A stretch of 40,208 bases of DNA from a phage. Shown in pieces: positions 8,794 to 39,329 of this stretch. The stretch is taken from the sequence record QB023162.1; one strand, written 5' to 3'. The notes below the pieces were generated by a model. That model was not told the origin of the DNA. It ran no database searches and saw only the letters and a list, made by a program, of their open reading frames with translations. The position numbers and the translations under genes were made by a program. Every line of letters begins with the position of its first letter. The stretch's first letter is position 1.

Positions 8794-8826
8794 TTTGCAG
8801 ACACCAATATAATAGGGTACTATTCA
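8794..8826 (+). promoter_or_regulatory. class A promoter with operator copy O1
   Basis: TTTGCA (8794..8799), then TATAAT (8808..8813) fused to palindrome ATAATAG-GGTA-CTATTCA (8809..8826); 38 nt upstream of ATG 8852. Confidence 0.5.
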
Positions 8827-8851
8827 GTTAACTTAAACAGGAGGCTGAAAA

Positions 8852-9055
8852 ATGTATGCAATTTGCGAAGTAGTTCCAGAGTTCGATGAAGAGTTCGACG
8901 GCGACCTGTACCGGGTTAAAAAGGTTCTTCAGGTTTTCCCTGACGTAAACTCTGCTGATAGAGCACTATACGTGTTTGACCCCGCAAGATACGGGGACTA
9001 CGACACTGTTCTGAGGGTTGTCCATGAGGATTACATAAACACAAGATTCCGTTGA
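8852..9055 (+). CDS. small acidic hypothetical protein (67 aa), antisense moron inside the late operon
   Basis: Own promoter and operator, SD CAGGAGG, and its own terminator; opposite strand to the flanking portal and head genes. Confidence 0.5.
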   Translation: MYAICEVVPEFDEEFDGDLYRVKKVLQVFPDVNSADRALYVFDPARYGDYDTVLRVVHEDYINTRFR

Positions 9056-9060
9056 AAACT

Positions 9061-9087
9061 AAGGCCCCAAACGGGGCCTTTTTCTTT
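9061..9087. terminator. bidirectional terminator
   Basis: AAGGCCCC-aaac-GGGGCCTT stem-loop with TTTTCTTT on plus and a U-rich tract on minus; lies between the moron stop and the portal stop. Confidence 0.6.
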
Positions 9088-12650: not shown

Positions 12651-12887
12651 TCATTCCCCGCTCTCCTCTTTAGCAATGCGTTGCTCTGTTTTAGTGATAC
12701 CTCGGCGCGTGAATAGCACCGGGCTGGTCTTAACGTGCGTCATCAGACGGTTGTTATAAATTACGTGGCGCTCACAATCAACGTCTTTGCTGTACTTGGC
12801 AATCGTCATTTCGTTGATGCCAGTTCGCCGGCATGCCTCCGCCATCGTGCCAAATTCTTTTATAAGGTTCGGAATGCTGGTAATCAT
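12651..12887 (-). CDS. small HTH-like DNA-binding protein (78 aa from ATG 12887; table start is GTG 12911)
   Basis: Segment MAEACRRTGINEMTIAKYS looks helix-turn-helix; SD GAGGAA upstream of ATG 12887. Confidence 0.4.
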   Translation of the reverse strand: MITSIPNLIKEFGTMAEACRRTGINEMTIAKYSKDVDCERHVIYNNRLMTHVKTSPVLFTRRGITKTEQRIAKEESGE

Positions 12888-13054
12888 CCTAAGAAATTCC
12901 TCGTTGTCCACATCGCATTCTGATATTTGTTATCGCGGTCCTGTACTACGGCAATCATGTTTCCACGCTGCACAAGACAGAAGTGACGTTGTTGCTCGCC
13001 GTTGTATCGACGCCAGATTGCTTCTTCGATTGCTGCGTTAATGTCACTGAACAT
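12884..13054 (-). CDS. unlisted 56-aa ORF
   Basis: ATG 13054; its TGA overlaps ATG 12887 of the next gene (ATGA); weak SD. Confidence 0.25.
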   Translation of the reverse strand: MFSDINAAIEEAIWRRYNGEQQRHFCLVQRGNMIAVVQDRDNKYQNAMWTTRNFLG

Positions 13055-14195: not shown

Positions 14196-14224
14196 AATAT
14201 AATAGGGTCTAAGGTAATAGTCAA
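14196..14224 (-). promoter_or_regulatory. sigma70-like promoter (TTGACT, 17 nt, TATATT) reading leftward
   Basis: Minus strand: -35 TTGACT is the reverse complement of 14219..14224 and -10 TATATT of 14196..14201, spacer 17 nt; overlaps a half operator TATAATAG (14198..14205). Confidence 0.5.
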
Positions 14225-14253
14225 CTAGTCATTACAGAAAATAGATAAAAAAA

Positions 14254-14278
14254 ATCCCGGCTGGGTCAGGGCCGGGAT
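14254..14278 (-). terminator. strong rho-independent terminator downstream of the lysis cassette
   Basis: ATCCCGGC/GCCGGGAT stem; on the minus strand it is followed by a run of eight to nine T. Confidence 0.65.
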
Positions 14279-14357
14279 AAAACTGGAGAGTAGAGGGATG
14301 AAGCAGGAGGTGATTTAAGTATCGTCGGATTAGTCTCAGGTGTCAATTGGTAAAATA

Positions 14358-15903: not shown

Positions 15904-16121
15904 TATCTCTCCTGTTTACCAAGTCGCTTAGGTGAGCAGATAGCGCGTACCTCTGAATCGTTGGGCTTGTCACCCTGAAACAGGAAGTGCGCGTTCTCTG
16001 CGGCGCGTGCCGCCGACTGGCACGCCTCCATCGAATAAAACGTTTCGGATGCCGCTAGTTGCATCTGGCCCGCGGACAATACCCAGATAAATAAGATGCT
16101 GGTCATTTCTTTAACCCACAT
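15903..16121 (-). CDS. small secreted protein with N-terminal signal peptide (start at ATG 16121 or 16106)
   Basis: Hydrophobic N-terminus TSILFIWVLSAGQMQLAA followed by a polar domain with two Cys; ATGA coupling at 16103..16106. Confidence 0.4.
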   Translation of the reverse strand: MWVKEMTSILFIWVLSAGQMQLAASETFYSMEACQSAARAAENAHFLFQGDKPNDSEVRAICSPKRLGKQER

Positions 16122-16648
16122 TTAATGCACATACATGGAAACCCGACTCCGTAAAATTGCCATTCGTGTTCACACTCGCTGGATTTAGTCACGCCGCAAT
16201 TAATACAAACGGCGGGAGCCTTACCATTAACGAATCGCCAGTTATGGTGGCATTCCTGTGTATCTTCTTTGCGGCAACCAGATTGCTCAGGTCCGTGTTC
16301 ACCTACTACGTATCGCTGACCCACAGAAATGTAGCCGCCTTTGCGGATAAGTTTGTAGGCCTCTGCGTCACCTGTAGCTGTAGCAAGTCGTTTCACCAGG
16401 TCCTCAACTTGCGCTTGAAGGCGCAAAGCGTCATTACGATATGCGGACGATTGCCCGGTCATATGTGATATGTGCTCGGATTTCCTAATGTTGTCTTCCT
16501 GCAACTCCTTAATCTGTTTCGACGCATCGCGTAACCGATTCTTAAGTGCCTGCACCTCATGCGCCAGGTCTTCGCACCGGTTGTTACTTACCTGCTGCCG
16601 TAGCTGGTCAATCAGGTACTCGAATACTTCGTTTTTGTTACTCATCAT
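16103..16648 (-). CDS. coiled-coil protein with C-terminal Cys/His-rich zinc-finger-like domain (start ATG 16648; table start is TTG 16651)
   Basis: N-terminal half is heptad-rich; the C-terminal 50 aa contain nine Cys and several His, including CINCG and CIKCG. Confidence 0.5.
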   Translation of the reverse strand: MMSNKNEVFEYLIDQLRQQVSNNRCEDLAHEVQALKNRLRDASKQIKELQEDNIRKSEHISHMTGQSSAYRNDALRLQAQVEDLVKRLATATGDAEAYKLIRKGGYISVGQRYVVGEHGPEQSGCRKEDTQECHHNWRFVNGKAPAVCINCGVTKSSECEHEWQFYGVGFPCMCIKCGLKK

Positions 16649-16757
16649 CAACCCCCATTGTTATCGCTTTAGTGTCTCCGTTGCACACCGAAGTGCTGCC
16701 CATTATTTCGTAAGCATCTACCAGTTCGCCTAAAGTCCAGCTACCGTACCCGCCCAT
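16638..16757 (-). CDS. unlisted 39-aa ORF, first gene after class A promoter O2
   Basis: ATG 16757 with SD GAGAGGAGAG, 42 nt downstream of the -10 element. Confidence 0.3.
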   Translation of the reverse strand: MGGYGSWTLGELVDAYEIMGSTSVCNGDTKAITMGVDDE

Positions 16758-16785
16758 CTTCCGTCTCTCCTCTCGTTTGTGTAAA

Positions 16786-16817
16786 TGAATAGTAACCTAT
16801 TCTATCTCAGTGTACAA
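16786..16817 (-). promoter_or_regulatory. class A promoter with operator copy O2 (minus orientation)
   Basis: Palindrome TGAATAG-TAAC-CTATTCT (16786..16803); minus-strand -10 TAGAAT preceded by TTGTAC. Confidence 0.45.
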
Positions 16818-16824
16818 GTAAATT

Positions 16825-16995
16825 TTATTGGTGTTTTAAAGATAATCGTTCACCTCTAATCCAGTAGTACCTCGGGCGTCGCGCCCACTGACGCCATCGC
16901 ATAACACGGTACTTGTTGCCGTCTGACGCAACAATAAGCCCGAATCGCTTTTCTCCGTTTCTACCGGTCCAGGTTACGATGTCATTCAGTTTCAT
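16825..16995 (-). CDS. unlisted 56-aa ORF
   Basis: ATG 16995 with SD AGGAG; open frame to TAA at 16825..16827. Confidence 0.35.
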   Translation of the reverse strand: MKLNDIVTWTGRNGEKRFGLIVASDGNKYRVMRWRQWARRPRYYWIRGERLSLKHQ

Positions 16996-17065
16996 TGTTG
17001 CATCTCCTGCAATAGTCGCTTCGATTGTTGCGTTTGGTGAAATAGAACAAAAATGAGAAAAATGA

Positions 17066-17087
17066 TACGCTGCTGTGTAGCAGCGTA
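17066..17087 (-). terminator. rho-independent terminator within the leftward early block
   Basis: 9-bp stem TACGCTGCT/AGCAGCGTA with loop GTGT; on the minus strand it is followed by TCATTTTTCTCATTTTTG. Confidence 0.55.
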
Positions 17088-17098
17088 AGTCACAAAGC

Positions 17099-17116
17099 CA
17101 AATAGTAACCTATTGG
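17099..17116. promoter_or_regulatory. degenerate operator copy O3
   Basis: CAAATAG-TAAC-CTATTGG keeps the AATAG-N4-CTATT core but no usable -10; overlaps the stop of ORF 17110..17259. Confidence 0.3.
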
Positions 17117-17259
17117 CCTGTTACACCAGCACGAAATTGCACACCAGCTTTCCACGCCCGCCACGCGAGACGCGTCTTAACGTTCAGGTATTCTTTCTTT
17201 GAGCCCTTGTTAACCGACAGACCCTCGACAACGGCCCACCGTTCAAATGCTTCTCTCAT
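17110..17259 (-). CDS. unlisted 49-aa ORF
   Basis: ATG 17259 with SD GGAGGA 7 nt upstream; TAG stop at 17110..17112. Confidence 0.3.
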   Translation of the reverse strand: MREAFERWAVVEGLSVNKGSKKEYLNVKTRLAWRAWKAGVQFRAGVTGQ

Positions 17260-17262
17260 AAC

Positions 17263-17454
17263 TTAGTCCTCCAGAACTTCACATTCACGGTTACGCACGT
17301 ACAGCTCCTCGCCGCAGTGTTCGACGAAGTGTCCAAAATCATTACTTGACGTAACCTCGAACTCATCACCTATCGAAACTCCAAATTGGCGCAAAGAATG
17401 GTCGCCATACCCCGGCGGCAGCACATAATCAATATCAGTTATACGAATTCTCAT
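17263..17454 (-). CDS. hypothetical protein (63 aa from ATG 17454)
   Basis: ORF table; SD GGGAGG 8 nt before ATG 17454; TAATG overlap with the upstream gene. Confidence 0.45.
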   Translation of the reverse strand: MRIRITDIDYVLPPGYGDHSLRQFGVSIGDEFEVTSSNDFGHFVEHCGEELYVRNRECEVLED

Positions 17455-17705
17455 TAACGGCAACCTCCCTCAGAGTCGTCCGCACGAGCATCATGATTCG
17501 ATGCCGTTGTGAATGATGCGGAAACAACATTGAAGAAAATAACGGTTAAAGTCTCGCCCACAGTGTCCTCTAAATCCCATTCATCACCGTCTTCATCTAA
17601 AACGTATCGACGGCCGTCGTAATATACTCCTGACGAATATTTGTTACCTTTCACAAACCAATCCTGCACATCCTGGCTGGATTCAATACAAATTAATTCT
17701 TCCAT
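17454..17705 (-). CDS. hypothetical acidic protein (83 aa from ATG 17705)
   Basis: ORF table; ATGA overlap with the upstream gene. Confidence 0.45.
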   Translation of the reverse strand: MEELICIESSQDVQDWFVKGNKYSSGVYYDGRRYVLDEDGDEWDLEDTVGETLTVIFFNVVSASFTTASNHDARADDSEGGCR

Positions 17706-17890
17706 CACTTCGCCCCTTTGAATTTAAAATTGTTGCCGATGAGTTCTAAATTGTCGCGGAAAGCGTAACCATGTTTCTTTCGTACAAGGCCCCATATGTC
17801 TACAGCGATACTGTAGTCATCCTCGTCCTGGGTAACTATTACGTACTGTCCGCCGCGTTTCGTTTTCACCAACTGACCCTTCTTAAACAT
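17705..17890 (-). CDS. hypothetical protein (61 aa from ATG 17890), first gene after class A promoter O4
   Basis: SD AGAGGAG 8 nt upstream of ATG 17890; 44 nt downstream of the -10 element. Confidence 0.45.
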   Translation of the reverse strand: MFKKGQLVKTKRGGQYVIVTQDEDDYSIAVDIWGLVRKKHGYAFRDNLELIGNNFKFKGAK

Positions 17891-17921
17891 AACCCTCACT
17901 CCTCTGTCTCGTTCCGATAAG

Positions 17922-17953
17922 TGAATAGTATCCTATTATGTTGAGGTGTGCAA
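17922..17953 (-). promoter_or_regulatory. class A promoter with operator copy O4 (minus orientation)
   Basis: Palindrome TGAATAG-TATC-CTATTAT (17922..17939); minus-strand -10 CATAAT preceded by TTGCAC. Confidence 0.5.
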
Positions 17954-18323
17954 GAGATTAGTTACGCTGCCGTTGTGATTCTTTCGAAACTGTTGTGCCT
18001 TTATTCTTATTACTTGGTAACTAAAGGGCAGGCCTTAAGCCTGCCCAATAATCGTTACATTTTTACGGTTGCGAATCTACGGCATTTTAAGAAAATCAGA
18101 TACTTAAGAGATATGCTGCCGATGAGAATAGAGCTTGCCCAGGGCAACCGGAGATACTTAGGAAGGAAAGTTACGATAATTCTTATGTTCAGTAAGCCTG
18201 TGTTTAACCCTTTGCTTGTCGCACGGGTTAAACATTCTTACGAGGTGAACAGGAATCAAAGTAACTAAGATATAGAAGCACCTTAAACGAAGATTTTCAT
18301 AATGTCAATAGGTACGATTATGT

Positions 18324-18352
18324 TTGATTTCCCATTATTCGCAATGTATACT
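18324..18352 (+). promoter_or_regulatory. sigma70-like promoter for the rightward early operon
   Basis: TTGATT (18324..18329), 17-nt spacer, TATACT (18347..18352); 32 nt upstream of ATG 18385; no operator palindrome. Confidence 0.45.
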
Positions 18353-18384
18353 CGGTTTCGTTAACTGATAATGAGGGCTTTGGA

Positions 18385-18555
18385 ATGACACAGAATGAAG
18401 TAGCAGAGCGTATCGGGGTTACTCGTCGCACGCTGAATAACTGGTTAAAGAGTGGGAAGTTCCCGGATTGTTGTATTCGCATTATGGGCCGCCGGCAGCC
18501 AGGTACGTTTGACCCGGAGAAAGTGGAAGCGTGGATTAAGGAGAACGTAAAATGA
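18385..18555 (+). CDS. unlisted 56-aa HTH DNA-binding protein (excisionase/AlpA-like HTH)
   Basis: Translation MTQNEVAERIGVTRRTLNNWLKSGKFP... fits an Xis/MerR-type helix-turn-helix; SD GAGGG; ATGA coupling to the next gene. Confidence 0.5.
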   Translation: MTQNEVAERIGVTRRTLNNWLKSGKFPDCCIRIMGRRQPGTFDPEKVEAWIKENVK

Positions 18556-18785: not shown

Positions 18786-18843
18786 AAGAAAGCCCCGACG
18801 CGGTGAACGCCGAGGCCAAATTACTTGCTGAAGGAAATACAAC

Positions 18844-29112: not shown

Positions 29113-31257
29113 CTAAAAACCCGCACCTAAAGTACCAGCTACTGACCACCTACCCGGTGTTCCAGGGGTGACACAGTACCACAAATATGGGGTAGACTCG
29201 ACAGCATCCAGATTAAGCACCATATCACCACGTTTCCAAGCTCCACTACCATCAGGTCTTCCTGCGGCTGGCTTACCTGTTCCAAGCCAATTACCATTAT
29301 ACTGTTGATCCCCGTTTTGCGTGAATGACAGAACCTTTGGTTTAGCTCCTGAGTATCGCATCACTGATTTACATGACACCTCGCCAGTGATATAGCAGTC
29401 TGAAACAAACAGCCAAGCACGGTCTCCGCAGTTAACATCCCCCAGTATCGAGGAGCTAGTCAGATGAATTTCAGTGAATGTCGGTGCAAATAGCGCAGTA
29501 ATCCCGATGTTCCTCAACGAAGAGTTGGATATTCTCAGCTCTTTCGGTGCACCATCATCACTACCAAAATCAATAACGGAACCTGGCGCATCCGACGATA
29601 AGGTACACTGATTAAAGGTCAATGAGGCATTCCACGCACCCCACGCGCCTCCTGCATGAGATATAAGGCAACCATCAAATTCTACCAGCCCTGTACTCTC
29701 CGTTCCTGTTACGAAAATCGGCTCTGAACTGGATGTTTTATACACATTGCATTTTATAAATTTAGCTTTAGCACCAGAGTTCTTCATAAACCTCTTATCT
29801 GTTTTGAAAGTACAGTTTATAAAAGTTGAGGTTTCAAGGACATTCCAAACGGCAACAGCACATTGCAGCAGGTTGTGGGTATTAGAACCGGAGTTATACT
29901 CAAACACGCTATTCATTACAGTAACTACGCCACACAACTCTGTGTGTATCGGTCGGTCATATCCGTAAACATACGCATTATTAATGCTAATATTCCTGGG
30001 GTCTGGCTTGCCTGTCGGGCTATACCCATCAACAACTATGCCACATCTACCACCACGTGAATTATTCCCGGACTCAACACGAATGTTATCAATGGATACG
30101 TTAGTGCTCCCATACCATACAATCAACCCATCACCCCAATTCTCTAGCTGTGAGCTAGTAAATCCTTTATCAGACAAAGGAGAGCAATCTTTCAGGGTTA
30201 TTTGATTAATACACCCATTCTGGCAATTAGATACATTAATTCCTTGCCGTTGCGCTTTCTCAACATAGACATTCTCCAGAGAGAAATTAGTAGTGTTGCG
30301 CAGGTTTATACCGATTGCGTAATCGTTCGCTTTGATGCTTATGTTCTTTAAATGGACATTAGCGAGAGAACCAGATGTTCCACCGGCAAAATTCGGGGTG
30401 TTTATAGCCGCCATTTCGCTGCCGTTTGTTACATCTGAAAGGGTGAAAACCGGCCCCATCCAGTTGAGTGTAGAATCTCTAAAATCTATATTTGTGTTGG
30501 AAGATAAAACCCAATCGCTAGATATGTTAATTATAGATTTTTCTGGAAAATACAAATCTACAAACGGTGCCGATGCCATAGCATCAAGAACAGGCTTAGC
30601 ATCAGCCATGTTGTTTTCGAAGCCAAAGTTGTTTGCGCTTCTAACATCATTACCGTTTAAAAGACCAATATTGCGCCAGAGAACGTCAGATGTAGGGGCT
30701 GGGTCAATATTCTTAGGGAAATTTCCGGTCCAGACATACCAATACCCGTCGCTGGCCTGAACAGCTTCTCTGAATTCATTTACAACACCCCCCGTTGTAA
30801 ATGAGTATTTCTTAAGAAAATTCACGAAATACCCATCTGAAATTAAATTAACACCAAGCGGTGCTTCCAGTTCCTGCCTGAGATTTGGGTCCGTCTGCGG
30901 TTCCCAATCCGCGCCCCCTACTGGGTTAAAGGACGCTGGAACAACAACCGGCAACGTACCCGCGTACGAGTACCATGTTTTACTTACAGGGTCGTAGACA
31001 ACTTTATTGCGGTCGTTAACCGCTAACGTGCCCCCAGTGGAAAAGTCCCATGACACCGGAGAAAATCCAGCATCGCGCAACACGGCAGGGAGTGTCTTCT
31101 GCGTCTGCCCTGTAACCTGATTTGTTGCGTAATCGATATCAGCGCCCCCCGCAACCCCACCGGATTTACCAGTGATAACCTCGGCCTCGAAAATCTGGTG
31201 TTTCTTGGCGGTTTGTAAGTCCGCCAGGCTTAAAACGTCACCGCATCCGCTTGACAT
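29113..31257 (-). CDS. tailspike / receptor-binding depolymerase with predicted right-handed beta-helix
   Basis: 714 aa; last gene of the tail module; Asn/Gly/Ser/Thr-rich periodic segments typical of pectate-lyase-like beta-helices; SD AGAGGA. Confidence 0.6.
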   Translation of the reverse strand: MSSGCGDVLSLADLQTAKKHQIFEAEVITGKSGGVAGGADIDYATNQVTGQTQKTLPAVLRDAGFSPVSWDFSTGGTLAVNDRNKVVYDPVSKTWYSYAGTLPVVVPASFNPVGGADWEPQTDPNLRQELEAPLGVNLISDGYFVNFLKKYSFTTGGVVNEFREAVQASDGYWYVWTGNFPKNIDPAPTSDVLWRNIGLLNGNDVRSANNFGFENNMADAKPVLDAMASAPFVDLYFPEKSIINISSDWVLSSNTNIDFRDSTLNWMGPVFTLSDVTNGSEMAAINTPNFAGGTSGSLANVHLKNISIKANDYAIGINLRNTTNFSLENVYVEKAQRQGINVSNCQNGCINQITLKDCSPLSDKGFTSSQLENWGDGLIVWYGSTNVSIDNIRVESGNNSRGGRCGIVVDGYSPTGKPDPRNISINNAYVYGYDRPIHTELCGVVTVMNSVFEYNSGSNTHNLLQCAVAVWNVLETSTFINCTFKTDKRFMKNSGAKAKFIKCNVYKTSSSEPIFVTGTESTGLVEFDGCLISHAGGAWGAWNASLTFNQCTLSSDAPGSVIDFGSDDGAPKELRISNSSLRNIGITALFAPTFTEIHLTSSSILGDVNCGDRAWLFVSDCYITGEVSCKSVMRYSGAKPKVLSFTQNGDQQYNGNWLGTGKPAAGRPDGSGAWKRGDMVLNLDAVESTPYLWYCVTPGTPGRWSVAGTLGAGF

Positions 31258-31269
31258 ATAGAGTCCTCT

Positions 31270-33852
31270 TTAACTAAAACCGTTGCTGAATCCGCCGGAG
31301 AAACCGCTACCGAAAGGTGCGACGCCGTCGTATTTGTAGAAATCTGCTTCGTAGTTAATCCCAGTAATCTTAACCGTTCTGTCGTCTCCTGGGTCAACTG
31401 TGGAAACAAGAATCATCTGAGCATTATGCCTTGCTTCGTTGCCGAATGAAAACTCAGTTTTTAGCGCGCTATTACCAGTATAAATTGCTTCCTGCGGTGC
31501 CGATAACATAACCACTTCACGGTCGTGACTTCCAGGCACAACGGCAACACTTTGAACTCCGCCGTCTCGCCTCTTAAGGATGAGTGAATGGTCATCTCCG
31601 GGGGTAAATGTAACTGGTTGCGATAGCGTAAGCGTCAGGCCGTTAACGGCGATTATATAGCCATCTTGAGGGGCCATGCGGGAACCTTTCACCACACTTA
31701 CAGCACGTCCTGGCATCGCAAAAATCCCTTCTTCTGTTGCTGTGAAAGACACAGTTACCTTCTTCAACAGGTTTTTCTGGTAGCGGCGGTATGCGGCCCA
31801 GTACGCCTGTCTATAATTTCTAATCCCTTTAGAGTCATACGTTTCAGTATTAACTCCTCCTTCTGCTGGTATGCTGATAGTCTCTTTTACGTTGGTATCT
31901 GGGTCAATGTAGGAGAACTTGAGACTATCGTATACCTGAGCGTCGTTGAATGTACGTGTCCACTTCTCCGAAGCTGTGGTTTTACTACGATGCGTGAATA
32001 CCATCTCAGGGCCGATGCGAGGGCGCTCGAAGTCCAGAAGAATATCAGCGCCTCTGCGGTATGGGGTGCAGAAAATTGCTTCCGCTATCGTAGTTACTAT
32101 GTCCTGCATAGTGGTTTTATAGTCATCAAACGTATAGCAAAACTCTCCTGCGGATGTGCTGCCGAAATAACTTTCAATTTCGTTCTGCACGGCCAGCAGT
32201 TTATCCATATTTGTCGTTGTCAGGTTCAGTGCGCCAACTTCCGGGTCTCTGGCGAGGCGAATGAGGGACTGGGTGGCCTTCGTGTTCGGCGTGCGAACTG
32301 TGTCGAAAACTCCGTTACCGAGGTACTTAAATACCATCTCTGTTACCACCATGCGCAACTGAGGTTGTTTAACCTCCGCCGCTCGTGGTGTCTGTTTACG
32401 CGCGGAATGCACTGTCGTTCGGTTACCGTAGTGTGGGGTTCGGTCGACTAATTGCCCGTAAAGATTTATATAGGCCACTTCATCGACTACTGTACCCTCA
32501 AAATCAAGGTCCAGATTGGTGACACGACGCGCTCTCACTCTTACACGTGATACGGACGGCAGGTCCGCATATATAGTAGCCCCAGTATAATCGGCGGACC
32601 TTCCGGAAACTGTCCCTTGTTTAGTGTAAACAGGGCCGTAAGCGCTTCCCGTTTCATCTAAAAGCTGATATTGCAGTTCTACGGTAACCGCGGCCCTTGA
32701 TTTATTGTCCCCATTGTCTTTGTACATGCCGTTCGTAGCGCCAATGTTGGCCACGATTCTTTCTACTGCAATTCTGTTTATAGCAACCCAATCGGTGAGG
32801 CTGGCCGAGGTGGTATCTAGCGGGCCTATAGTTGACTCTGGCTCATTAGATTGTATTTTATAGCCGCCCACAGGCAACTTCTGCCATTGAGATAGTGCCG
32901 GTGTGGCATCTACCCTAATCTCCGTCTCGCTTACAGAAATGCATGTGTAATTCCCATCAAGAATGGCGTCCGTTGCTGGGTTTGGGCTGCCGGATACCCA
33001 GCAATGTATACCGATGAATTTAACGGCCATACCCACTTTGATAAAGTCACTAAACCCGGCGTCCCCAGTTGGGTCAGTTACTATGCCAGTTGTTCCCTCC
33101 AGTTTCGCAATAGATAGTTCTCTCGTTACAGGCGACGCAAGGTCGTTAGGCGCTTTCAGCACCACACCGTCCACTTCATTGGACGCAACAGTGATGTAAA
33201 GCCCTTGTGTAATGGGGCCTCCGACCATTAATTGTGGGGCGTTTGTGTTGTTCGGAGAGGTGTACGGAGCGTACACCGCCACAGACGTGCCGGTTATATC
33301 CCGGACCTTAGTATCGCCGTCGGTGATGTCTTCTGCTTTAACGTCAAGATACCCGCGCCCCGCATCATAATAACCGTACTCGATGATGCGACCAGCGTCA
33401 TTGAAGACTTTATATGTAGTCATAAGGTTATTAGGTATTGTCTGCACCCTGCCGCAGATGTCATAAGTTCGCTCGTAAGGGCGAGCCTTGTTATTTCGGT
33501 CTGTCAGACTGTTGTTCGGTGAGTCCGCTTGCTGGTTAGCAAGATTGTTAGACGCGCCCTTCGTTGACGGTGTGAGTAATTTAGCTAGCGGTTTAAGGAT
33601 GATGCTGAACACTTTCATCACACCCTTGATAGCACCGCCACCAGCACCTTCCAGGACGTGAAAAACGGCATCCTGTTTTAATGCGTCAAAATCTTCTGTT
33701 ACGTCGTTATCCTCTCCTATCTCTTCGAGGAAAACGCGAAACGGCACACCGTCAGGGATATGGTTTACGACGAAATTAAGCGGCGAGTCGTTATGCCGTT
33801 TTTGTGAGAACGTCCCGTCTTCATTGCGGGTGTAGTGGATGACTATCGCCAA
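31270..33852 (-). CDS. central tail fiber / host specificity protein (J-like), TTG start as listed
   Basis: 860 aa immediately downstream of the K-like NlpC/P60 gene; start codon uncertain (TTG 33852, overlapping the upstream stop). Confidence 0.45.
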   Translation of the reverse strand: MAIVIHYTRNEDGTFSQKRHNDSPLNFVVNHIPDGVPFRVFLEEIGEDNDVTEDFDALKQDAVFHVLEGAGGGAIKGVMKVFSIILKPLAKLLTPSTKGASNNLANQQADSPNNSLTDRNNKARPYERTYDICGRVQTIPNNLMTTYKVFNDAGRIIEYGYYDAGRGYLDVKAEDITDGDTKVRDITGTSVAVYAPYTSPNNTNAPQLMVGGPITQGLYITVASNEVDGVVLKAPNDLASPVTRELSIAKLEGTTGIVTDPTGDAGFSDFIKVGMAVKFIGIHCWVSGSPNPATDAILDGNYTCISVSETEIRVDATPALSQWQKLPVGGYKIQSNEPESTIGPLDTTSASLTDWVAINRIAVERIVANIGATNGMYKDNGDNKSRAAVTVELQYQLLDETGSAYGPVYTKQGTVSGRSADYTGATIYADLPSVSRVRVRARRVTNLDLDFEGTVVDEVAYINLYGQLVDRTPHYGNRTTVHSARKQTPRAAEVKQPQLRMVVTEMVFKYLGNGVFDTVRTPNTKATQSLIRLARDPEVGALNLTTTNMDKLLAVQNEIESYFGSTSAGEFCYTFDDYKTTMQDIVTTIAEAIFCTPYRRGADILLDFERPRIGPEMVFTHRSKTTASEKWTRTFNDAQVYDSLKFSYIDPDTNVKETISIPAEGGVNTETYDSKGIRNYRQAYWAAYRRYQKNLLKKVTVSFTATEEGIFAMPGRAVSVVKGSRMAPQDGYIIAVNGLTLTLSQPVTFTPGDDHSLILKRRDGGVQSVAVVPGSHDREVVMLSAPQEAIYTGNSALKTEFSFGNEARHNAQMILVSTVDPGDDRTVKITGINYEADFYKYDGVAPFGSGFSGGFSNGFS

Positions 33853-34208
33853 AATTCAATCTCCTGATATGTGTCGCGTAAATCGTCCAGGCGGTCGAGG
33901 CGCACTTGTCTGGACGCTAACTCGCAGTGGCTTACCATACCGTCATAATACACGCCAGCGTGCCACACTACACGCCCCCTGTGATAAGTACCAAGCAACA
34001 CGGCATCGTAATTCTGCGGACTGGCGGCTCGTTCCAGACCTTTAGGGTTGGAGTGGCCCGCGTCAAACGCCGCGTCTATAGCCGTCGGGGATGTTACGTC
34101 GAAAGCTGGCGTATATAGGCCAACATCGCCGCGCACCCTGCGCACGTGATGCCAGCAGTTATAACGACGGAAGTCATAAGGGGTGCCCGTATAATCGGTG
34201 ATACTCAT
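33843..34208 (-). CDS. tail assembly protein, NlpC/P60-family (lambda K-like), start ATG 34208
   Basis: Cys-His motif RYNCWHHV typical of NlpC/P60 peptidases; ATGA coupling to the upstream L-like gene; the table ORF 33843..34361 is an over-extension. Confidence 0.55.
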   Translation of the reverse strand: MSITDYTGTPYDFRRYNCWHHVRRVRGDVGLYTPAFDVTSPTAIDAAFDAGHSNPKGLERAASPQNYDAVLLGTYHRGRVVWHAGVYYDGMVSHCELASRQVRLDRLDDLRDTYQEIEFWR

Positions 34209-34720
34209 GACAAGAGTACCCCACGCAACAGCGGTATTTCTTCCGGTGTCATCAGGATTCCGGTCTGCCGTTGGTTGAGCATAGGCGTTCCGGTCTCTGC
34301 GGTGAACACGCCTTTCTCTTGTGTCAACGTCTGCAACTCGTATACCACTGGGCCGTCGCACGGGTACGACAGGTCTGTGCTTACGTAGCGCCGGAATATA
34401 AATTTAGGTAACTCCGTATTGCTATACGGGATGCGATCCATCTCTTCATCAAGAATGTTAAGGACATCCGGCAGCGAGAATGATGCTGTCTGGTCCATAT
34501 CATTATTGTTCGCGGCGTTCTTGGCGTCCATAGGCGTGGCCTCGAACGTAACAGTTTCGCCAGTTTCAAGTGTAGCGGTAAGGTCAGACGTACCGCGCAC
34601 AAGTAACCACCGCTTTGAGAGAAGCGGATGCGTTATTTCGAGCGTAATGTAGTCCAGTTCGCCGTCTGGGTTAGAGGCCAACTTACGGCGATAGGCTGCT
34701 TCTACTGATTCCTGGCTCAT
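34205..34720 (-). CDS. minor tail protein (L-like by position)
   Basis: 171 aa between M-like and K-like genes in lambda tail-tip order. Confidence 0.4.
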   Translation of the reverse strand: MSQESVEAAYRRKLASNPDGELDYITLEITHPLLSKRWLLVRGTSDLTATLETGETVTFEATPMDAKNAANNNDMDQTASFSLPDVLNILDEEMDRIPYSNTELPKFIFRRYVSTDLSYPCDGPVVYELQTLTQEKGVFTAETGTPMLNQRQTGILMTPEEIPLLRGVLLS

Positions 34721-34723
34721 AAA

Positions 34724-36106
34724 TTAACCGTCCACATTAAAGTCGATACGAGTGATATATTTACTACCCCACGCAGAATCGGCCTGCGAGATAGTCGCGT
34801 AACCGTCAACCGCTGGAACGTTTACTACAGAGCCGTCTGAATAGGTAATGCCGATACTGGTTGCCTCACCCATTGCTACTTTTGCCCTGGCGGCGGTACG
34901 GTTGGCGGGAGTGGTAGGGGTGGCAATATACGAGGTGTTAAGGCTTCCGACCTCTAATTGCATCATTTGAGCCTTAAATACCGTCCCTACCGGAATCATG
35001 TCGTCGCCGCCTGTCGCAAATCTACATCGTACTTGCAGTAAGTACACATCGTCAGACGGGGCTGTAAATGTTGCATTAAATCTTATGTAACCATCACTAT
35101 CTCTTACAGCGTTTGCTGTAAAGTTGCTTGTGTGGACCTCGGTTCCGTTATCAAGTTTTATGTCGCAAGAATCACTATACGCCTCTGATTTTGCAACACG
35201 TAGACGTATTCGGCCGTAGTCACCGCCGACTCTCCCCGAGAATGTGACTTTATCCCCAGCGACCATTTGCTTCTCGTACGCTAAAAACTCTACGTCCTGC
35301 CGATTAGCCGCCACGACGGTGACAAAACCAGTTACAGCATTAGTAATACCGTCAGTTACTGCAGTAACTGACGCCTGTGCTGTGCGGTAAGGCCAAGCGG
35401 TGGGTGTGTTACTCTCGTTATAAAGGTTAACGCTGGCGTTTTCCGGCGGCACACGGCCTGCGGCAACTCCGTCAATAAATGTAAGAGGCCATTCATTAGC
35501 GGCGGACTGCACAAGATTGCCGTTTCGGTTGATGTAATAGACCTGTGGCCCGTCATACACAATGCGGCTATCAAGAGTCGACGCCAGAAGGTTAATCGGC
35601 GGGTATCCGGCAGGGCCTTCATTGCTCCAGATGCGCGGGAACGTCGTCTCGTAGTTCGCGTATATTTTCAGGAAACTACCCAGGCGATCCCCGTAACAAC
35701 CGTACAAATCGGGAAGATTCTTCGTAAGGCATGTATCTTCCTGGATAGCTGTTCTCTCTGCCGTAGCAGTGAACGTGATTACCCAGTTCTTACCGTCGTC
35801 GGTGCTATCACTAATCGTCGATGTGATGAGTATCTGGTGGTCCTCAATACCCATACCTGTATCATGCGGCATGATAAACGAGGACGCCCCGCCGTCGATG
35901 TTGTTCAGGAAGCTATAAAACGCCTGACGCCCGAGAGACGACACGACGAGCGTCACACTAATCGGCACCGGTTCGAAGTACGTGTCTCGCCCCTGGCGCG
36001 GCAAGCCGCCCTGAACCTCGGTGCGCCAGATATTACTCCCCCTGGTCTGGGAGTACCCCTTCGACACTATCGGGCGAAGGGACATAGGGAATCTCAAATC
36101 ACTCAT
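34724..36106 (-). CDS. minor tail protein M-like N-terminal domain with about 340-aa C-terminal extension
   Basis: N-terminus (GYSQT...SVTL...FLNNIDGG) resembles recalled lambda gpM (GYSQR...SVTLS...FLEEHGG); directly downstream of the tape measure gene. Confidence 0.45.
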   Translation of the reverse strand: MSDLRFPMSLRPIVSKGYSQTRGSNIWRTEVQGGLPRQGRDTYFEPVPISVTLVVSSLGRQAFYSFLNNIDGGASSFIMPHDTGMGIEDHQILITSTISDSTDDGKNWVITFTATAERTAIQEDTCLTKNLPDLYGCYGDRLGSFLKIYANYETTFPRIWSNEGPAGYPPINLLASTLDSRIVYDGPQVYYINRNGNLVQSAANEWPLTFIDGVAAGRVPPENASVNLYNESNTPTAWPYRTAQASVTAVTDGITNAVTGFVTVVAANRQDVEFLAYEKQMVAGDKVTFSGRVGGDYGRIRLRVAKSEAYSDSCDIKLDNGTEVHTSNFTANAVRDSDGYIRFNATFTAPSDDVYLLQVRCRFATGGDDMIPVGTVFKAQMMQLEVGSLNTSYIATPTTPANRTAARAKVAMGEATSIGITYSDGSVVNVPAVDGYATISQADSAWGSKYITRIDFNVDG

Positions 36107-36109
36107 TAA

Positions 36110-38419
36110 TTAATACCCCGGCTGACCGCGGGTAGCGCGGCGAGCTTTAGAAATCGGCGAGTTGTTATCCTGTAACTGCGACGCTACTGTTTCACTGATT
36201 ATAATACGTAATCGCCCTTCGTCATCACGTTCTGTTACAGCAGAATCTACGCGCCCGGTGGTGTTGTTGACTATGGTTACATTGTCTCCGCCGGACGTGC
36301 TGCCGTTTTGGCCCATAATCTCTTTCATCTGCTGCGCGGTGCGCACACGCGATGCTCCCGCTGGCATGATAACTTCTGGTTTACCGCGCTCAGCGATGGT
36401 GGAAGCCTGTCCCGCGGATAACTGACCGCCCTGCTCACGCGCTGACCGGATTTTGGCGATATTAGCCAGCCCCGCAGCAACGGCAGTAGCTGCGGCAACC
36501 GGCGCCAGGAATGGGCCAACAACAGGGATCGCAGCCGTTGCCTTATATGCCTCAATAGCCGATGTGTACGTGGCGATAGTGGCCTGCGCAATAGCAAACG
36601 CTTTATACGCGGTGGACGCCTCGCCAAATGCTGTTTTAGCATTAGCCGCCATGTCTCCGAAAGAACTACCTAAAGCATCGGCGCGCTTCGTGGCATACTG
36701 CTCATTGATAGCGTTAAGCGCCGCCTGATACTGTTCCTCATTAATCAGCCCCTGCTCACGGTACTTATCCGCTACCGCCAGTTTCTGCTGCTCCTGGATG
36801 TCGAGAAGCTCAAGCTCGGCGGCATTCTGACCCATAATCTGAGCCATGAAGTCGTCGCCTTTCTGCTGCTTTTCCTGGGCTTCTTTTCTTTTCTTATCTA
36901 GTTCTTCCTGTCTGGCCTGCTCGGCAGATAGCATAATCTGAGTTTTTGCGTTTTCGTATTGCTGCTGACTTATCGTTCCTGCGCGGTTGAACTCTTCAAG
37001 TTTCGCCAGTTTCTGTTCTTCCGCCGCTGTAATACGTGAAATTTCGTCTCCAGTAGTGCGGTCGACAGTAGCGAGGAAATCTTCCGCTGCTTTTTTCTGA
37101 CGTTCAGCCGCCGTTTCTTCACGTTTGGCCTGCGCCGCCAGACGTTTCTCGTTCGATTTAGCCTCGCGGTCTGCCTTCTCTTTCTCGGTCTTGTCAATGC
37201 GAGCTATGTCTTGCTGCGCTTCCGCGTCACGGGCGGCGTTATACGCGGCTATCTGTTCTTTGGTGACAGCTTCACGTTTAGCGAACGCCTGCTTATCCAG
37301 TTCAGCCTGCGCCCGGATGCGCTCACGGTCGCTTAAGATGGCGATTTGCTGATTCTTGACGATAGCTTCGTTCTGTTCCTGGAATCTCTGCGTGGTTGAG
37401 TTAACGTTACGACCAAGATTCTTTTGGGCCTCTGCCGCCGCGTTTGCTGACTTCTCCGCGTTCTCCAGTGCTGTGGCGTTCTTGTTGGCGTTGTCCGTCA
37501 GGCGGATAAGTTCCGGGTTCAACTGTTTTGTGTTGCCCAGCCAGTCGGTAAACACATCGGCGATGCGACGGGCATTCTCAGCGGTCGGCTCTTTATTAAA
37601 CGCGCTCTGCGCCGCTATCATCTCCAGCGCCTGGTCACGGTTAACCCCGAACTTACTGCTAAGCTCTGCGATATTCTGCGCCAGCATGTTGACGCCTACG
37701 ATGTTACCCTCGTAAGTGCCACCGAGTTTTTCTAACGTGTCGCCTACATCCGCACCTTTAGAGACCAATGCATCGTACTGGCTGATAGCTGATGCTGTGG
37801 ATGCCTTCCATGTCTCCCATGATTCTGCGTCCTCACGAACAGCTTTAGCTGTTTGCTGTGCGATAAGGTCCGCGTTAGCCTTAGCCAGCGCAAGCTGAGT
37901 CTCCGCCGCTTCTCTGCTGATTTGGGTAAGCTGGATAAGGCCGTCTGTCAGTTCGAGAGAGCCGGACGCCGTTTGCTGGAAAGTATCTTTTAACTGTTTC
38001 TGTGCGGCTTCCAGGTCTTTTGAGCTACCCTCAGCCTCAGTTAATGATTTGTAAAGAACGCCACCAACCGCTGACGCTAGCGCGATTACAGCCCCAAGCA
38101 CCGCACCACCGGGGCCGAAAGCACCCGCAAGCTGCGAACCTTGCTGACCGATTGCCACAAATGCCGACGTACCGGATTGCAGCTGGACAACCATGTCCTG
38201 CACCTGGAAGCCAACCTGCCCGGCGGCGTTACGGAACTTAGCGAAACCGTCAGAGGCTGCTTTAGAGGTAGCTGTGTTAACTTTATTGACATCCGGAGTC
38301 AGCTTGTTTACTGCGGTATCCGCCCGGTCTGCGGATGCCGCCATAGCGTCAAGCTGTTTGGCGGCTACGTCAGCGCCTTCTGTTTTTACTCTGGCAATTA
38401 GGGAAGCCGTATCAGCCAT
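36110..38419 (-). CDS. tail tape measure protein (start ATG 38419; table start is TTG 38434)
   Basis: About 769 aa, Ala/Gln/Glu/Lys-rich coiled coil; downstream of the chaperone pair; SD GAGGG before ATG 38419. Confidence 0.8.
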   Translation of the reverse strand: MADTASLIARVKTEGADVAAKQLDAMAASADRADTAVNKLTPDVNKVNTATSKAASDGFAKFRNAAGQVGFQVQDMVVQLQSGTSAFVAIGQQGSQLAGAFGPGGAVLGAVIALASAVGGVLYKSLTEAEGSSKDLEAAQKQLKDTFQQTASGSLELTDGLIQLTQISREAAETQLALAKANADLIAQQTAKAVREDAESWETWKASTASAISQYDALVSKGADVGDTLEKLGGTYEGNIVGVNMLAQNIAELSSKFGVNRDQALEMIAAQSAFNKEPTAENARRIADVFTDWLGNTKQLNPELIRLTDNANKNATALENAEKSANAAAEAQKNLGRNVNSTTQRFQEQNEAIVKNQQIAILSDRERIRAQAELDKQAFAKREAVTKEQIAAYNAARDAEAQQDIARIDKTEKEKADREAKSNEKRLAAQAKREETAAERQKKAAEDFLATVDRTTGDEISRITAAEEQKLAKLEEFNRAGTISQQQYENAKTQIMLSAEQARQEELDKKRKEAQEKQQKGDDFMAQIMGQNAAELELLDIQEQQKLAVADKYREQGLINEEQYQAALNAINEQYATKRADALGSSFGDMAANAKTAFGEASTAYKAFAIAQATIATYTSAIEAYKATAAIPVVGPFLAPVAAATAVAAGLANIAKIRSAREQGGQLSAGQASTIAERGKPEVIMPAGASRVRTAQQMKEIMGQNGSTSGGDNVTIVNNTTGRVDSAVTERDDEGRLRIIISETVASQLQDNNSPISKARRATRGQPGY

Positions 38420-39190
38420 CTTCTCTGCCCTCAAATATTCCGTCTAAGCCCATGATAACCTCGGCTTCGAACAAACTTATGCCGTAACCGGCGACATCAC
38501 GAAACGCTACCAAATCTTGCCATTTGAGCGCATCGCGCGGGATTATGACGATAGTATCATCTGTTTCGCGCTGTAGGAATTTAATGGCGCGGTATTTCTC
38601 GAACACGTCGATAAGAGAAACGGGGCATTCAGGCCCCGTCGCTTCTTTCATCTGCGGTTCTTTAATCACGCCCATTGCAATCAAAGCCGCCTGGTGGCCT
38701 GCCGCTATGTCGTCGAATTGCTTACGTTTGTGGCGGTCGACAAAGCACCATTGCGCAAATTCATACAGCGCTTTTACTTTTCCGAGAGTTTCTCGCGACT
38801 GTCGGTGTGATGCTTAACTACGGCCTCCGCCAGCCCACTGTACTGGTCGAACAGGTTAGCCAGTGCCTCTTTGCTGAAAGGTTCGTCGAACGACCAACCG
38901 GTGACGATTTCAACGGCAAGCTGCTTGTTCAAGTCCACCACCCGCCAGCCCTTCTCATCGTTATAGCGCGCCCAGTTATTCAGCGCCTCGCACTCTTTAT
39001 CTAACGGCGCAAGTTCTTCCGTAAGGCGTCGAATTGCCGTTGTATAGGCCCGGCCAGCACGAACGCCAGCGTCACAATCAGGGCCGATGACTTGCAACCA
39101 TTCACCGGAATCTTTACCGCTAGGCAGAAGGATGGGCATTTTAGTGCCAGCAGCATGGCGGTCCGCAAAATAAAAATCAGAGAGTTTCAT
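38412..39190 (-). CDS. tail assembly chaperone G-T fusion product (predicted -1 programmed frameshift near 38777..38783)
   Basis: The -1 frame is open from 38813 through ORF 38412..38684; heptamer GGAAAAG sits at the last two codons of G just before its TAA; the arrangement matches the conserved G/GT pair upstream of tape measure genes. Confidence 0.4.
38774..39190 (-). CDS. tail assembly chaperone (G-like)
   Basis: 138 aa directly upstream of the tape measure gene, with an overlapping -1 frame extension. Confidence 0.55.
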   Translation of the reverse strand: MKLSDFYFADRHAAGTKMPILLPSGKDSGEWLQVIGPDCDAGVRAGRAYTTAIRRLTEELAPLDKECEALNNWARYNDEKGWRVVDLNKQLAVEIVTGWSFDEPFSKEALANLFDQYSGLAEAVVKHHTDSREKLSEK

Positions 39191-39297
39191 TATTTAATCC
39201 TTTGGTTAAGAGGTTACAAGTTAAGGTTGACGCGCCAGACGGGAACCACCCGCTTTTCGTGTGCGACACTAGGCGCAAACTTATTCTAACACACTAC

Positions 39298-39329
39298 TTG
39301 CGCACCCCAATATAATAGAGTACTATTCA
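39298..39329 (+). promoter_or_regulatory. class A promoter with operator copy O9
   Basis: TTGCGC (39298..39303), then TATAAT (39311..39316) fused to palindrome ATAATAG-AGTA-CTATTCA (39312..39329); 38 nt upstream of ATG 39355. Confidence 0.5.

What the first reader, a model, noticed from the sequence alone, without database searches (positions are those of the whole stretch)
8809..39329. Nine copies of an 18-bp palindrome overlapping promoter -10 elements: a one-repressor regulon
The motif (T/A)(G/T)AATAG-N4-CTATT(A/C)(A/T) occurs at 8809..8826, 16786..16803, 17099..17116 (degenerate), 17922..17939, 21346..21363, 21390..21407, 23730..23747, 27276..27293 and 39312..39329, with a half site at 14198..14205. 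Every full copy lies 35 to 45 nt upstream of a gene start with a strong SD and overlaps the -10 hexamer. Three copies sit in the 17-nt spacer of perfect TTGACA-N17-TATAGT promoters feeding the replication module. The rest fuse to TATAAT-like hexamers ahead of small-gene operons and two antisense cassettes. The copy before the XRE gene 21102..21317 makes that protein the obvious autoregulated binder. This is a compact control circuit in a phage with no integrase.
Basis: partly seen in the sequence, partly recalled or inferred. Interest (0 to 1): 0.65.

Follow-up and report, generated by a model that had tools for sequence, protein, structure and literature searches.

The report
Promoter-embedded operator set of a lytic phage
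A virulent E. coli phage (Kagunavirus) has the same 18-bp mirror-image DNA site inside nearly all of its promoters, most likely so that one small Cro-like phage protein can throttle the whole genome; the mechanism is a textbook one, but this circuit seems not to have been described for this therapy-relevant phage group.

Summary
AATAG-N4-CTATT occurs 8 times exactly (about 0 expected) and is the top palindrome in an unbiased census. Ten of 11 sites with at most one mismatch lie in the 6.8% non-coding DNA (P=2e-11).

The window is a Kagunavirus (Guernseyvirinae), about 90% identical to ZCEC5 and BUCT825. The dyad is built into sigma-70-type promoters in three registers:
- inside the spacer of three TTGACA-17-TATAGT promoters;
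- over a TACTAT -10 hexamer at five sites;

Half-sites are kept at the same promoters in Kagunavirus and Jerseyvirus genomes while the central 4 bp and even the register change. Related lineages carry symmetrically altered dyads (AATAC, ATTAG). This points to a phage-encoded dimer, not RNA polymerase or a host factor.

The best candidate binder is the 71-aa protein at 21102..21317. It has an HTH_3 domain, and 434 Cro is its closest solved relative. It is the only recognisable sequence-specific HTH present in every genome compared that carries a dyad, and two sites flank its promoter. Binding, repression and transcription starts remain untested.

Verdict: a new member of a known kind, of moderate interest.

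The parts
21390..21407 (+). Operator O2 (TGAATAGCTCGCTATTAT). It lies in the spacer of promoter 21382..21410 (TTGACA-17-TATAGT), which drives the operon starting at 21424/21442. Its left half also overlaps a possible -35 hexamer (TTCACT) of the leftward XRE promoter.
21346..21363 (-). Operator O1 (minus strand TTAATATGGTACTATTCA). It has one core mismatch, which is also present in ZCEC5, K1H and two IMG/VR contigs. It covers the TACTAT hexamer and the predicted start region of the XRE gene promoter, 44 bp centre-to-centre from O2.
21102..21317 (-). Gene for the 71-aa Cro/CI-type HTH protein, the candidate operator-binding dimer.
   Evidence: Pfam HTH_3 E=1e-12. 434 Cro E=2e-6 over residues 6-68. 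AF2 five-helix model; Foldseek hits to 434 repressor, 434 Cro and P22 c2. HTH region invariant across homologues that are 77-97% identical.
23730..23747 (+). Operator in the spacer of promoter 23722..23750 (TTGACA-17-TATAGT), ahead of the ssDNA-binding protein / DNA polymerase operon.
27276..27293 (+). Operator (CTAATAGCGAGCTATTAT) in the spacer of promoter 27268..27296 (TTGACA-17-TATAGT), ahead of the helicase operon. It lies within the 3' end of the VRR-NUC gene.
17922..17939 (-). Operator over the -10 hexamer of TTGCAC-17-TACTAT, which drives the small-gene operon 17899->17110.
16786..16803 (-). Operator over the -10 hexamer of TTGTAC-17-TACTAT, which drives the operon 16757->14510 (small genes, holins, endolysin).
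8809..8826 (.). Operator shared by a divergent pair. On the plus strand, TTGCAG-17-TACTAT drives the 67-aa ORF 8852..9055. On the minus strand a weak spacer-register promoter (AAGTTA-17-TATATT) faces the head-morphogenesis genes.
   Evidence: divergent promoters are annotated at the same place in PVP-SE2
39312..39329 (.). Operator shared by a divergent pair. On the plus strand, TTGCGC-17-TACTAT drives 39355..39681 and downstream genes. On the minus strand, GTTACA-17-TATATT (39337..39309) faces the tail operon 39190->29113.
14214..14231 (-). Degenerate operator (TGACTAGTTGACTATTAC) whose centre is the -35 hexamer of promoter 14224..14196 (TTGACT-17-TATATT), ahead of the small-gene/terminase/portal operon.
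   Evidence: found at the same promoter in ZCEC5, K1H, Jersey and PVP-SE2
17099..17116 (-). Orphan copy (CAAATAGTAACCTATTGG). It has an exact core but no -35 hexamer, and lies 11 nt upstream of the intrinsic terminator 17087..17066.
7146..7163 (-). Marginal operator-like site (CGAATAGTTGACTTTTCA) over the -35 hexamer of TTGACT-17-TAAGCT, ahead of the spanin/scaffold/capsid genes. It abuts a different conserved dyad (GAATA-N3-TATTC), so membership is doubtful.

Best explanation
The 18-bp dyad (core AATAG-N4-CTATT) is most likely the operator of a phage-encoded dimeric helix-turn-helix regulator. The best candidate is the 71-aa 434-Cro-like protein encoded at 21102..21317.

The operators are built into host sigma-70-type promoters in three registers, assuming a start site 7 nt after the -10 hexamer:
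- between the -35 and -10 hexamers (about -27 to -10);
- across the -10 hexamer (about -21 to -4);
- across the -35 hexamer (about -42 to -25).

In each register a bound dimer would compete with RNA polymerase. After infection the strong consensus promoters would fire on host polymerase. The protein would then accumulate and turn down almost every transcription unit. Its own gene would be turned down last, through a conserved weaker operator. This would be a genome-wide negative-feedback or shut-off circuit in a phage without a lysogeny module.

Shown here: the sites, their placement in promoter-like sequences, their conservation, and the protein's family and fold. Inferred: that this protein binds the sites, that binding represses, and the timing.
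For: 1. The statistics, and the confinement of the sites to non-coding DNA, argue against chance.

2. The half-site that lies in the promoter spacer has no known role for sigma-70, yet it is conserved.

3. At the same promoters in ZCEC5, K1H, Jersey and PVP-SE2 the half-sites persist while the central 4 bp changes. At one promoter the register itself differs: the Jerseyvirus genomes use TATTAT inside the site, whereas the Kagunavirus genomes use TACTAT. The dyad therefore behaves as a module independent of the hexamers.

4. Related lineages with diverged XRE proteins carry dyads of the same 5-N4-5 geometry, changed symmetrically in both halves:
- TATTA-N6-TAATA in the Cornellvirus phage FSL SP-031 and its close relative St162 (9 and 8 sites against about 1.1 expected);
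- AATAC-N4-GTATT in IMG/VR contig L064 (4 against 0.16);
- ATTAGC-N2-GCTAA in L074 and L082 (5 against 0.3).

5. The motif type follows phage lineage, not host. Jerseyvirus and Cornellvirus both infect Salmonella but carry different dyads.

6. The XRE protein is present in every genome compared that has a dyad, and in L012, L048, L050, L062 and L064 a copy of the dyad lies upstream of its gene. The 56-aa HTH_17 protein is absent from phiEap-2, from both Cornellvirus-type genomes and from the 12.7-kb L064 locus.

7. Of 40 small ORFs scanned, only XRE, the HTH_17 protein and a NinH-like protein show DNA-binding domains.

8. The XRE protein resembles 434 Cro in sequence and fold. From established knowledge, 434 Cro binds 14-bp dyads as a dimer.

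9. The helix-turn-helix region is invariant among Kagunavirus-type XRE proteins that are 77-97% identical. A contig whose XRE is 78% identical keeps five exact AATAG operators.
Against: - There is no binding, footprint or transcription-start data. The hexamer assignments are consensus matches only.
- Kagunavirus and Jerseyvirus XRE proteins are about 50% identical and differ at four recognition-helix positions (SQGAINQ against SQSLITH), yet share the AATAG core. Only the flanking base differs.
- The lineage-by-lineage covariation is confounded by phylogeny, and many small proteins of unknown function are equally conserved.
- No dyad could be found for several other XRE lineages.
- A repressor that also sits on the late-operon promoters is awkward for a lytic programme.
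- The helicase-primase operon promoter candidate (18324..18352) has no site.
Confidence: 0.6

Rival explanations
1. The dyad is a real operator but is bound by another phage protein, not the XRE protein. Candidates are the 56-aa HTH_17 protein (18385..18555), the NinH-like protein (12651..12911), or one of the conserved small proteins of unknown function.
For: The HTH_17 protein is 86-100% identical between Kagunavirus and Jerseyvirus genomes, which mirrors the shared AATAG core better than the 50%-identical XRE does. The NinH-like protein and several unknown small ORFs are conserved in all eight genomes.
Against: The HTH_17 protein is missing from phiEap-2, FSL SP-031 and St162 and was not found in the 12.7-kb L064 locus, yet all of these carry promoter dyads. 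NinH relatives are Fis-like, low-specificity DNA binders (established knowledge). The unknown ORFs have no detectable DNA-binding domain. None of these proteins has sites at its own promoter in the way the XRE does.
Confidence: 0.15
2. The XRE protein binds the sites but is not a simple repressor. It could act as a switch at the shared divergent promoters (8809, 39312), or as an activator of the weak late-direction promoters.
For: Two sites are shared by back-to-back promoters whose late-direction -35 hexamers are poor (AAGTTA, GTTACA). Late operons carrying a repressor site need some explanation.
Against: Sites lie inside or across the core hexamers of promoters with optimal 17-bp spacers. 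That is the geometry of occlusion. It is not the geometry of class I/II activators (upstream of -35) or of MerR-type activators (19-20 bp spacers), from established knowledge.
Confidence: 0.1
3. No dedicated binder exists. The symmetry is a by-product of promoter architecture, meaning -10-like hexamers on both strands of bidirectional promoters or a lineage-specific spacer preference.
For: The right half supplies part of a -10 hexamer in every register. Two or three sites do have plausible promoters in both directions.
Against: The three spacer-register promoters inside co-directional gene arrays have no reverse -10 hexamer (the central bases are CTCG, TTAG and CGAG), yet both half-sites are perfect. 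The two -10 hexamers would be 6 bp apart, so starts would be about 30 bp apart, not the 18 bp of symmetric bidirectional promoters. Both half-sites change together in other lineages. The 17099 copy has no promoter.
Confidence: 0.07
4. A host transcription factor of Enterobacteriaceae binds the dyad.
For: The promoters are host sigma-70 type. The same core is used by phages of E. coli and of Salmonella.
Against: Cornellvirus phages of Salmonella use a different dyad from Jerseyvirus phages of Salmonella. I know of no E. coli regulator with this site. Resemblances to the ARG box (TGAAT-N4-ATTCA, wrong spacing) and to the trp operator (needs ACTAG) fail on defining positions; both comparisons are from memory.
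Confidence: 0.04

Closest known systems
Phage 434 Cro / CI with the OR and OL operators (and P22 C2/Cro)
   Same: The protein is the same size (71 aa) and has the same fold, and 434 Cro is the best solved-structure hit. The operator is a 14-bp dyad (5-N4-5, 18 bp with flanks) that overlaps core promoter hexamers. Two sites lie in a divergent control region next to the regulator gene, and the weaker one lies on the regulator's own promoter.
   Different: No CI partner, integrase or lysogeny module is annotated in four relatives. The operators are not confined to one switch region: they sit on about ten promoters across the genome, including those of late structural operons. The half-site sequence is different. 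Binding has not been shown.
Phage P1 C1 repressor regulon (many operators dispersed over the genome)
   Same: One operator type is scattered over many transcription units of a phage genome and overlaps promoters.
   Different: From established knowledge, P1 operators are asymmetric 17-bp sites bound by a 283-aa monomer, and P1 is temperate, maintained as a plasmid prophage. Here the sites are symmetric, the candidate protein is a small Cro-like dimer, and the phage is virulent. Homology to C1 was not tested.
Controller (C) proteins of restriction-modification systems (C.AhdI, C.BclI)
   Same: These are small XRE-type HTH dimers, and the predicted fold matches them (ranks 4 and 10). They bind dyads that overlap their own promoter, giving concentration-dependent autoregulation.
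   Different: C proteins act on one or two promoters of a restriction-modification operon and both activate and repress. No restriction-modification context exists here, and there are about ten target promoters.

Membership tests
Cro/CI-type (XRE, HTH_3) repressor-operator system | The regulator has a Cro/C1-type helix-turn-helix domain | tested here: met
   Pfam HTH_3 E=1.1e-12, 48.2 bits against a cut-off of 23. phmmer hit to 434 Cro at E=1.9e-6.
Cro/CI-type (XRE, HTH_3) repressor-operator system | Five-helix lambda-repressor-like fold | tested here: met
   The AF2 model has pLDDT 76.8 and five helices. Foldseek finds the 434 repressor N-terminal domain, 434 Cro and P22 c2 at TM 0.73-0.77. 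The model has moderate confidence and rests on a shallow alignment.
Cro/CI-type (XRE, HTH_3) repressor-operator system | The operator is a short inverted repeat with half-sites about one helical turn apart | tested here: met
   AATAG-N4-CTATT occurs 8 times exactly and is the top dyad in the census. Both halves change symmetrically in other lineages.
Cro/CI-type (XRE, HTH_3) repressor-operator system | Operators overlap core promoter elements | tested here: inconclusive
   The sites overlap the best sigma-70 consensus matches in the window, and promoters are annotated at the same places in the Jersey and PVP-SE2 records. No transcription-start data exist.
Cro/CI-type (XRE, HTH_3) repressor-operator system | The protein binds the operator specifically and represses | not testable with these tools
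   Needs EMSA, footprinting or reporter assays.
Cro/CI-type (XRE, HTH_3) repressor-operator system | Operator(s) at the regulator's own promoter (autoregulation) | tested here: met
   O1 and O2 lie 29-46 and 73-90 nt upstream of the start codon. The same arrangement is seen in IMG/VR contigs L012, L048 and L064.
Lambdoid lysogeny switch (CI + Cro + integrase) | A second, CI-type maintenance repressor, an integrase, and prophage forms | tested here: not met
   No integrase or second XRE protein is annotated in BUCT825, Jersey, K1H or ZCEC5. There is no match in 5,426 complete E. coli genomes.
MerR-type spacer-binding activators | The dyad lies in an over-long (19-20 bp) spacer, and the regulator is of the MerR family | tested here: not met
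   The spacers are 17 bp. The only MerR-like hit is a weak one for the 56-aa HTH_17 protein, which is absent from other dyad-bearing genomes.
Symmetric bidirectional promoters (overlapping -10 elements on both strands) | -10 hexamers on opposite strands overlap, with divergent starts about 18 bp apart | tested here: not met
   Where both directions have hexamers (8809, 39312), the hexamers are 6 bp apart, so the starts would be about 30 bp apart. The three co-directional promoters have no reverse hexamer at all.

The most novel reading that the evidence does not exclude
Because one operator type sits on essentially every promoter, early and late, the Cro-like protein could silence the whole genome. 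A nominally strictly virulent, integrase-less phage could then persist as a quiescent episome (a carrier or hibernation state), for example in non-growing hosts. This would be a lysogeny-free dormancy switch shared by Kagunavirus and Jerseyvirus phages used in therapy and biocontrol. The only hint is a complete Kagunavirus genome deposited as a circular 44-kb 'plasmid' of a clinical E. coli blood isolate (CP088689.1). That record may equally be carry-over of phage in the culture.
Probability: 0.08. Interest if true: 0.8.

Novelty: new member of a known kind. Interest (0 to 1): 0.42.

Why it matters
- **Therapy and biocontrol.** Kagunavirus and Jerseyvirus phages are among the small siphoviruses most often isolated for use against E. 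coli and Salmonella. Their 'transcriptional repressor' gene is repeatedly annotated without any known target.
- **A testable wiring diagram.** A defined operator and a map of which promoters carry it give the whole subfamily a model that can be tested directly. It would explain why a lytic phage keeps a Cro-like gene.
- **Practical tools.** Expressing the protein in trans should block phages with matching operators but not phages of other operator types. The compact, strong, repressible promoters could serve as parts for engineering these phages as chassis.
- **Evolution of specificity.** The lineage-specific dyads (AATAG, AATAC, ATTAG) offer a natural series for studying how repressor and operator specificity change together.

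Tried and rejected
- **The 56-aa HTH_17 protein as binder.** Its high conservation made it attractive, but it is absent from phiEap-2, FSL SP-031 and St162 and was not found in the L064 locus, all of which have promoter dyads.
- **Host-factor idea.** The ARG box and trp operator resemblances fail on spacing or on key bases (comparison from memory). The motif follows phage lineage, not host.
- **Bidirectional-promoter artefact.** Rejected from the co-directional spacer-register sites.
- **MerR-type activation.** Rejected because the spacers are 17 bp.
- **ATTAG-N4-CTAAT in Cornellvirus-type genomes.** It is only weakly enriched there. The better description is TATTA-N6-TAATA.
- **De novo dyad census in more distant XRE-bearing contigs.** The census in L049, L066-L068, L075-L091 was too noisy to assign operators.
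- **RNA-seq paper on Kagunavirus K1B4 (PMC12645636).** It reports an HTH-domain gene among four early genes, but sampling is coarse and the genome accession is not given, so the gene could not be mapped.
- **Literature searches for a prior description.** Nothing was found. The 2015 'Jerseyvirinae' paper is not held in the library.
- **Non-coding RNA checks.** Rfam and tRNA scans of the window were empty.
- **File handling.** Some calls went on working out that a locus file can hold several records.

Full report
**What the window is.** Megablast of 16000..24000 finds 454 phage records. The best are Escherichia phages ZCEC5, BUCT825 and SZH-1 at about 90% identity, all Kagunavirus, subfamily Guernseyvirinae. 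Gene order matches these virulent siphoviruses:
- structural and lysis genes on the minus strand;
- a replication module on the plus strand (18385..29076);
- tail genes on the minus strand (29113..39190).

No integrase is annotated in four relatives. A 6.6-kb segment has no match in 5,426 complete E. coli genomes.

- The core AATAG-N4-CTATT occurs 8 times exactly and 11 times with at most one mismatch, against 0.93 expected.
- An unbiased census of every 5-mer dyad with 2-6 bp spacers puts this one first.
- A weight matrix separates the nine reported sites (16-24 bits) from two weaker ones (7146 at 13.7 bits, 14214 at 10.9 bits) and from noise at 9.4 bits or below.
- Ten of the 11 sites lie in the 6.8% non-coding DNA (P=2e-11), and 9 of the 12 internal gaps of at least 60 nt hold one.

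**Anatomy.** The site has a direction: TGAATAG-N4-CTATTAT. It sits in sigma-70-type promoters in three registers.
- *Spacer register (21390, 23730, 27276).* The layout is TTGACA, 2 nt, the 18-mer, then AGT, which gives TTGACA-17-TATAGT. These are the three best promoter matches in the window (11 of 12). The left half-site lies wholly in the spacer.
- *-10 register (8809+, 39312+, 16786-, 17922-, 21346-).* The layout is a -35 hexamer (TTGCAG, TTGCGC, TTGTAC or TTGCAC), 8 nt, then the 18-mer in the opposite orientation. The -10 hexamer is TACTAT, made of the last two central bases plus CTAT. The 21346 copy has no clear -35 hexamer at this spacing.
- *-35 register (14214-, and marginally 7146-).* The centre of a degenerate site is the -35 hexamer TTGACT.

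The sites at 8809 and 39312 lie between divergent genes. Read on the minus strand they are in the spacer register (39337..39309 is GTTACA-17-TATATT), facing the head and tail operons. One site could therefore control two back-to-back promoters.

The 17099 copy has no -35 hexamer and lies 11 nt before a terminator, so it is an orphan.

The candidate promoter of the helicase-primase operon (18324..18352) has no site.

**Conservation.** The dyad is similarly enriched in K1H (12 sites with at most one mismatch against 0.86 expected), ZCEC5, Jersey and PVP-SE2. It is enriched in looser form in phiEap-2 and absent from the Cornellvirus phage FSL SP-031. Almost all hits are intergenic and sit in the same three registers.

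At the same promoters in different genomes the half-sites are kept while the central 4 bp varies. At the promoter corresponding to 39312, the Jerseyvirus genomes (Jersey, PVP-SE2) place the site so that TATTAT serves as the -10 hexamer, whereas the Kagunavirus genomes use TACTAT. The dyad is thus conserved independently of the hexamers. This argues against a purely promoter-intrinsic origin.

**Lineage-specific variants.** FSL SP-031 and its close relative St162 instead carry TATTA-N6-TAATA at promoters (9 and 8 sites against about 1.1 expected; 0-3 sites in the other genomes).

I fetched 80 IMG/VR contigs through XRE homologues. Among them:
- L064 has AATAC-N4-GTATT (4 sites against 0.16 expected, two of them flanking its XRE promoter);
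- L074 and L082 have ATTAGC-N2-GCTAA (5 sites against 0.3).

In each lineage both half-sites changed together. That is the signature of recognition by a symmetric dimer whose specificity has drifted. Jerseyvirus and Cornellvirus both infect Salmonella yet differ in dyad, so a host factor is unlikely.

**Who binds?** Pfam scans of 40 small ORFs find only three DNA-binding candidates:
- the 71-aa HTH_3 protein (21102..21317);
- a 56-aa HTH_17 protein (18385..18555);
- a NinH-like protein.

The HTH_17 protein is absent from phiEap-2, from both Cornellvirus-type genomes and from the 12.7-kb L064 locus. The XRE protein is present in all of them (38-97% identity).

The closest solved relative of the XRE protein is 434 Cro (E=1.9e-6 over the full length). 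An AF2 model (pLDDT 76.8) is a five-helix bundle that matches the 434 repressor domain, 434 Cro, SinR, C.AhdI and P22 c2. From established knowledge, these proteins bind 14-18 bp dyads of the same geometry as dimers.

Within the Kagunavirus lineage the helix-turn-helix region is invariant while the termini vary.

Two sites 44 bp apart flank the XRE promoter. The proximal one carries a core mismatch that is also present in ZCEC5, K1H and two IMG/VR contigs. This is consistent with weaker, late autoregulation.

*Caveat.* Kagunavirus and Jerseyvirus XRE proteins differ at four recognition-helix positions yet share the AATAG core. Only the base flanking the core differs: T or G in the Kagunavirus type, T in 90% of Jerseyvirus-type sites.

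**Mechanism proposed.** Host RNA polymerase would fire the consensus promoters on entry. The Cro-like dimer would accumulate and occlude the -35 hexamer, the spacer or the -10 hexamer at nearly every transcription unit, and finally its own promoter. Binding, the sign of regulation and the timing are all inferred.

**Comparison and novelty.** It works like 434 or P22 Cro with their operators, spread over a genome as in the P1 C1 regulon, but in a virulent phage with no lysogeny module. Searches of the held literature found promoter annotations for this phage group but no description of this operator. I rate it a new member of a known kind, of moderate interest.

Noticed in passing
window 6380..6392, about 6415..6430, 7163..7175, about 7197..7212: A second, different conserved dyad, GGAATA-N3-TATTCC, with nearby direct repeats GGAATAA-N2-GGAATAA. 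It sits upstream of the spanin genes and of the scaffold/capsid genes. At 6380 (minus strand) it directly abuts a TTGACA hexamer, so it is centred at about -42, and a hairpin follows. It is present at the same places in all eight whole genomes compared (window included), among them FSL SP-031, St162 and phiEap-2, so it is more widely conserved than the AATAG operator. It could be the site of a late-gene activator.
   Followed up: partly
window 14346..14243, minus strand: An operator-free promoter-like site (TTGACA-17-GATACT) is followed about 60 nt later by a strong intrinsic terminator. It lies between the endolysin gene and the terminase-operon promoter. The roughly 70-nt transcript it would give contains CACCTCCT, which resembles an anti-Shine-Dalgarno sequence. 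There is no Rfam hit. It is a candidate small RNA.
   Followed up: no
window 17940..18384: About 440 nt with no convincing gene, between the 17922 operator and the HTH_17 gene. The ORF 17948..18268 has a GTG start and is conserved only in ZCEC5. The region contains a G+C-rich hairpin (18026..18046). At 18303..18320 there is a near-copy of the operator with a 3-bp instead of a 4-bp centre (AATAGGTACGATT). This could be an origin or leader region.
   Followed up: no
PLSDB record CP088689.1 (locus L092): A complete Kagunavirus genome (44,086 bp, circular) is deposited as 'plasmid pC16EC0033-2' of an E. coli blood isolate. It is the only such record among 72,556 plasmids. It reflects either phage carry-over in the culture or episomal carriage.
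   Followed up: partly
window 17099..17116 and 17066..17087: An orphan operator copy lies immediately upstream of an intrinsic terminator on the minus strand. Jersey and PVP-SE2 have a weak site beside the same hairpin, whereas ZCEC5 and K1H have none within one mismatch. It might act as a roadblock or be a relic.
   Followed up: partly
window 8852..9055 with terminator 9061..9080: A self-contained unit (operator-promoter, 67-aa ORF with no family match, terminator) is inserted antisense between the portal and head-morphogenesis genes. Jersey and PVP-SE2 carry an amidase gene in the same slot, and the plasmid-like record carries nothing there. It appears to be a variable 'moron' slot under operator control.
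   Followed up: partly
window 18385..18555: The 56-aa HTH_17 (excisionase/AlpA-like) protein that heads the helicase-primase operon is far more conserved (86-100% identity, 71% in K1H) than its neighbours between Kagunavirus and Jerseyvirus genomes. It is missing from FSL SP-031, St162 and phiEap-2, where the XRE gene occupies the position upstream of the helicase-primase gene.
   Followed up: partly
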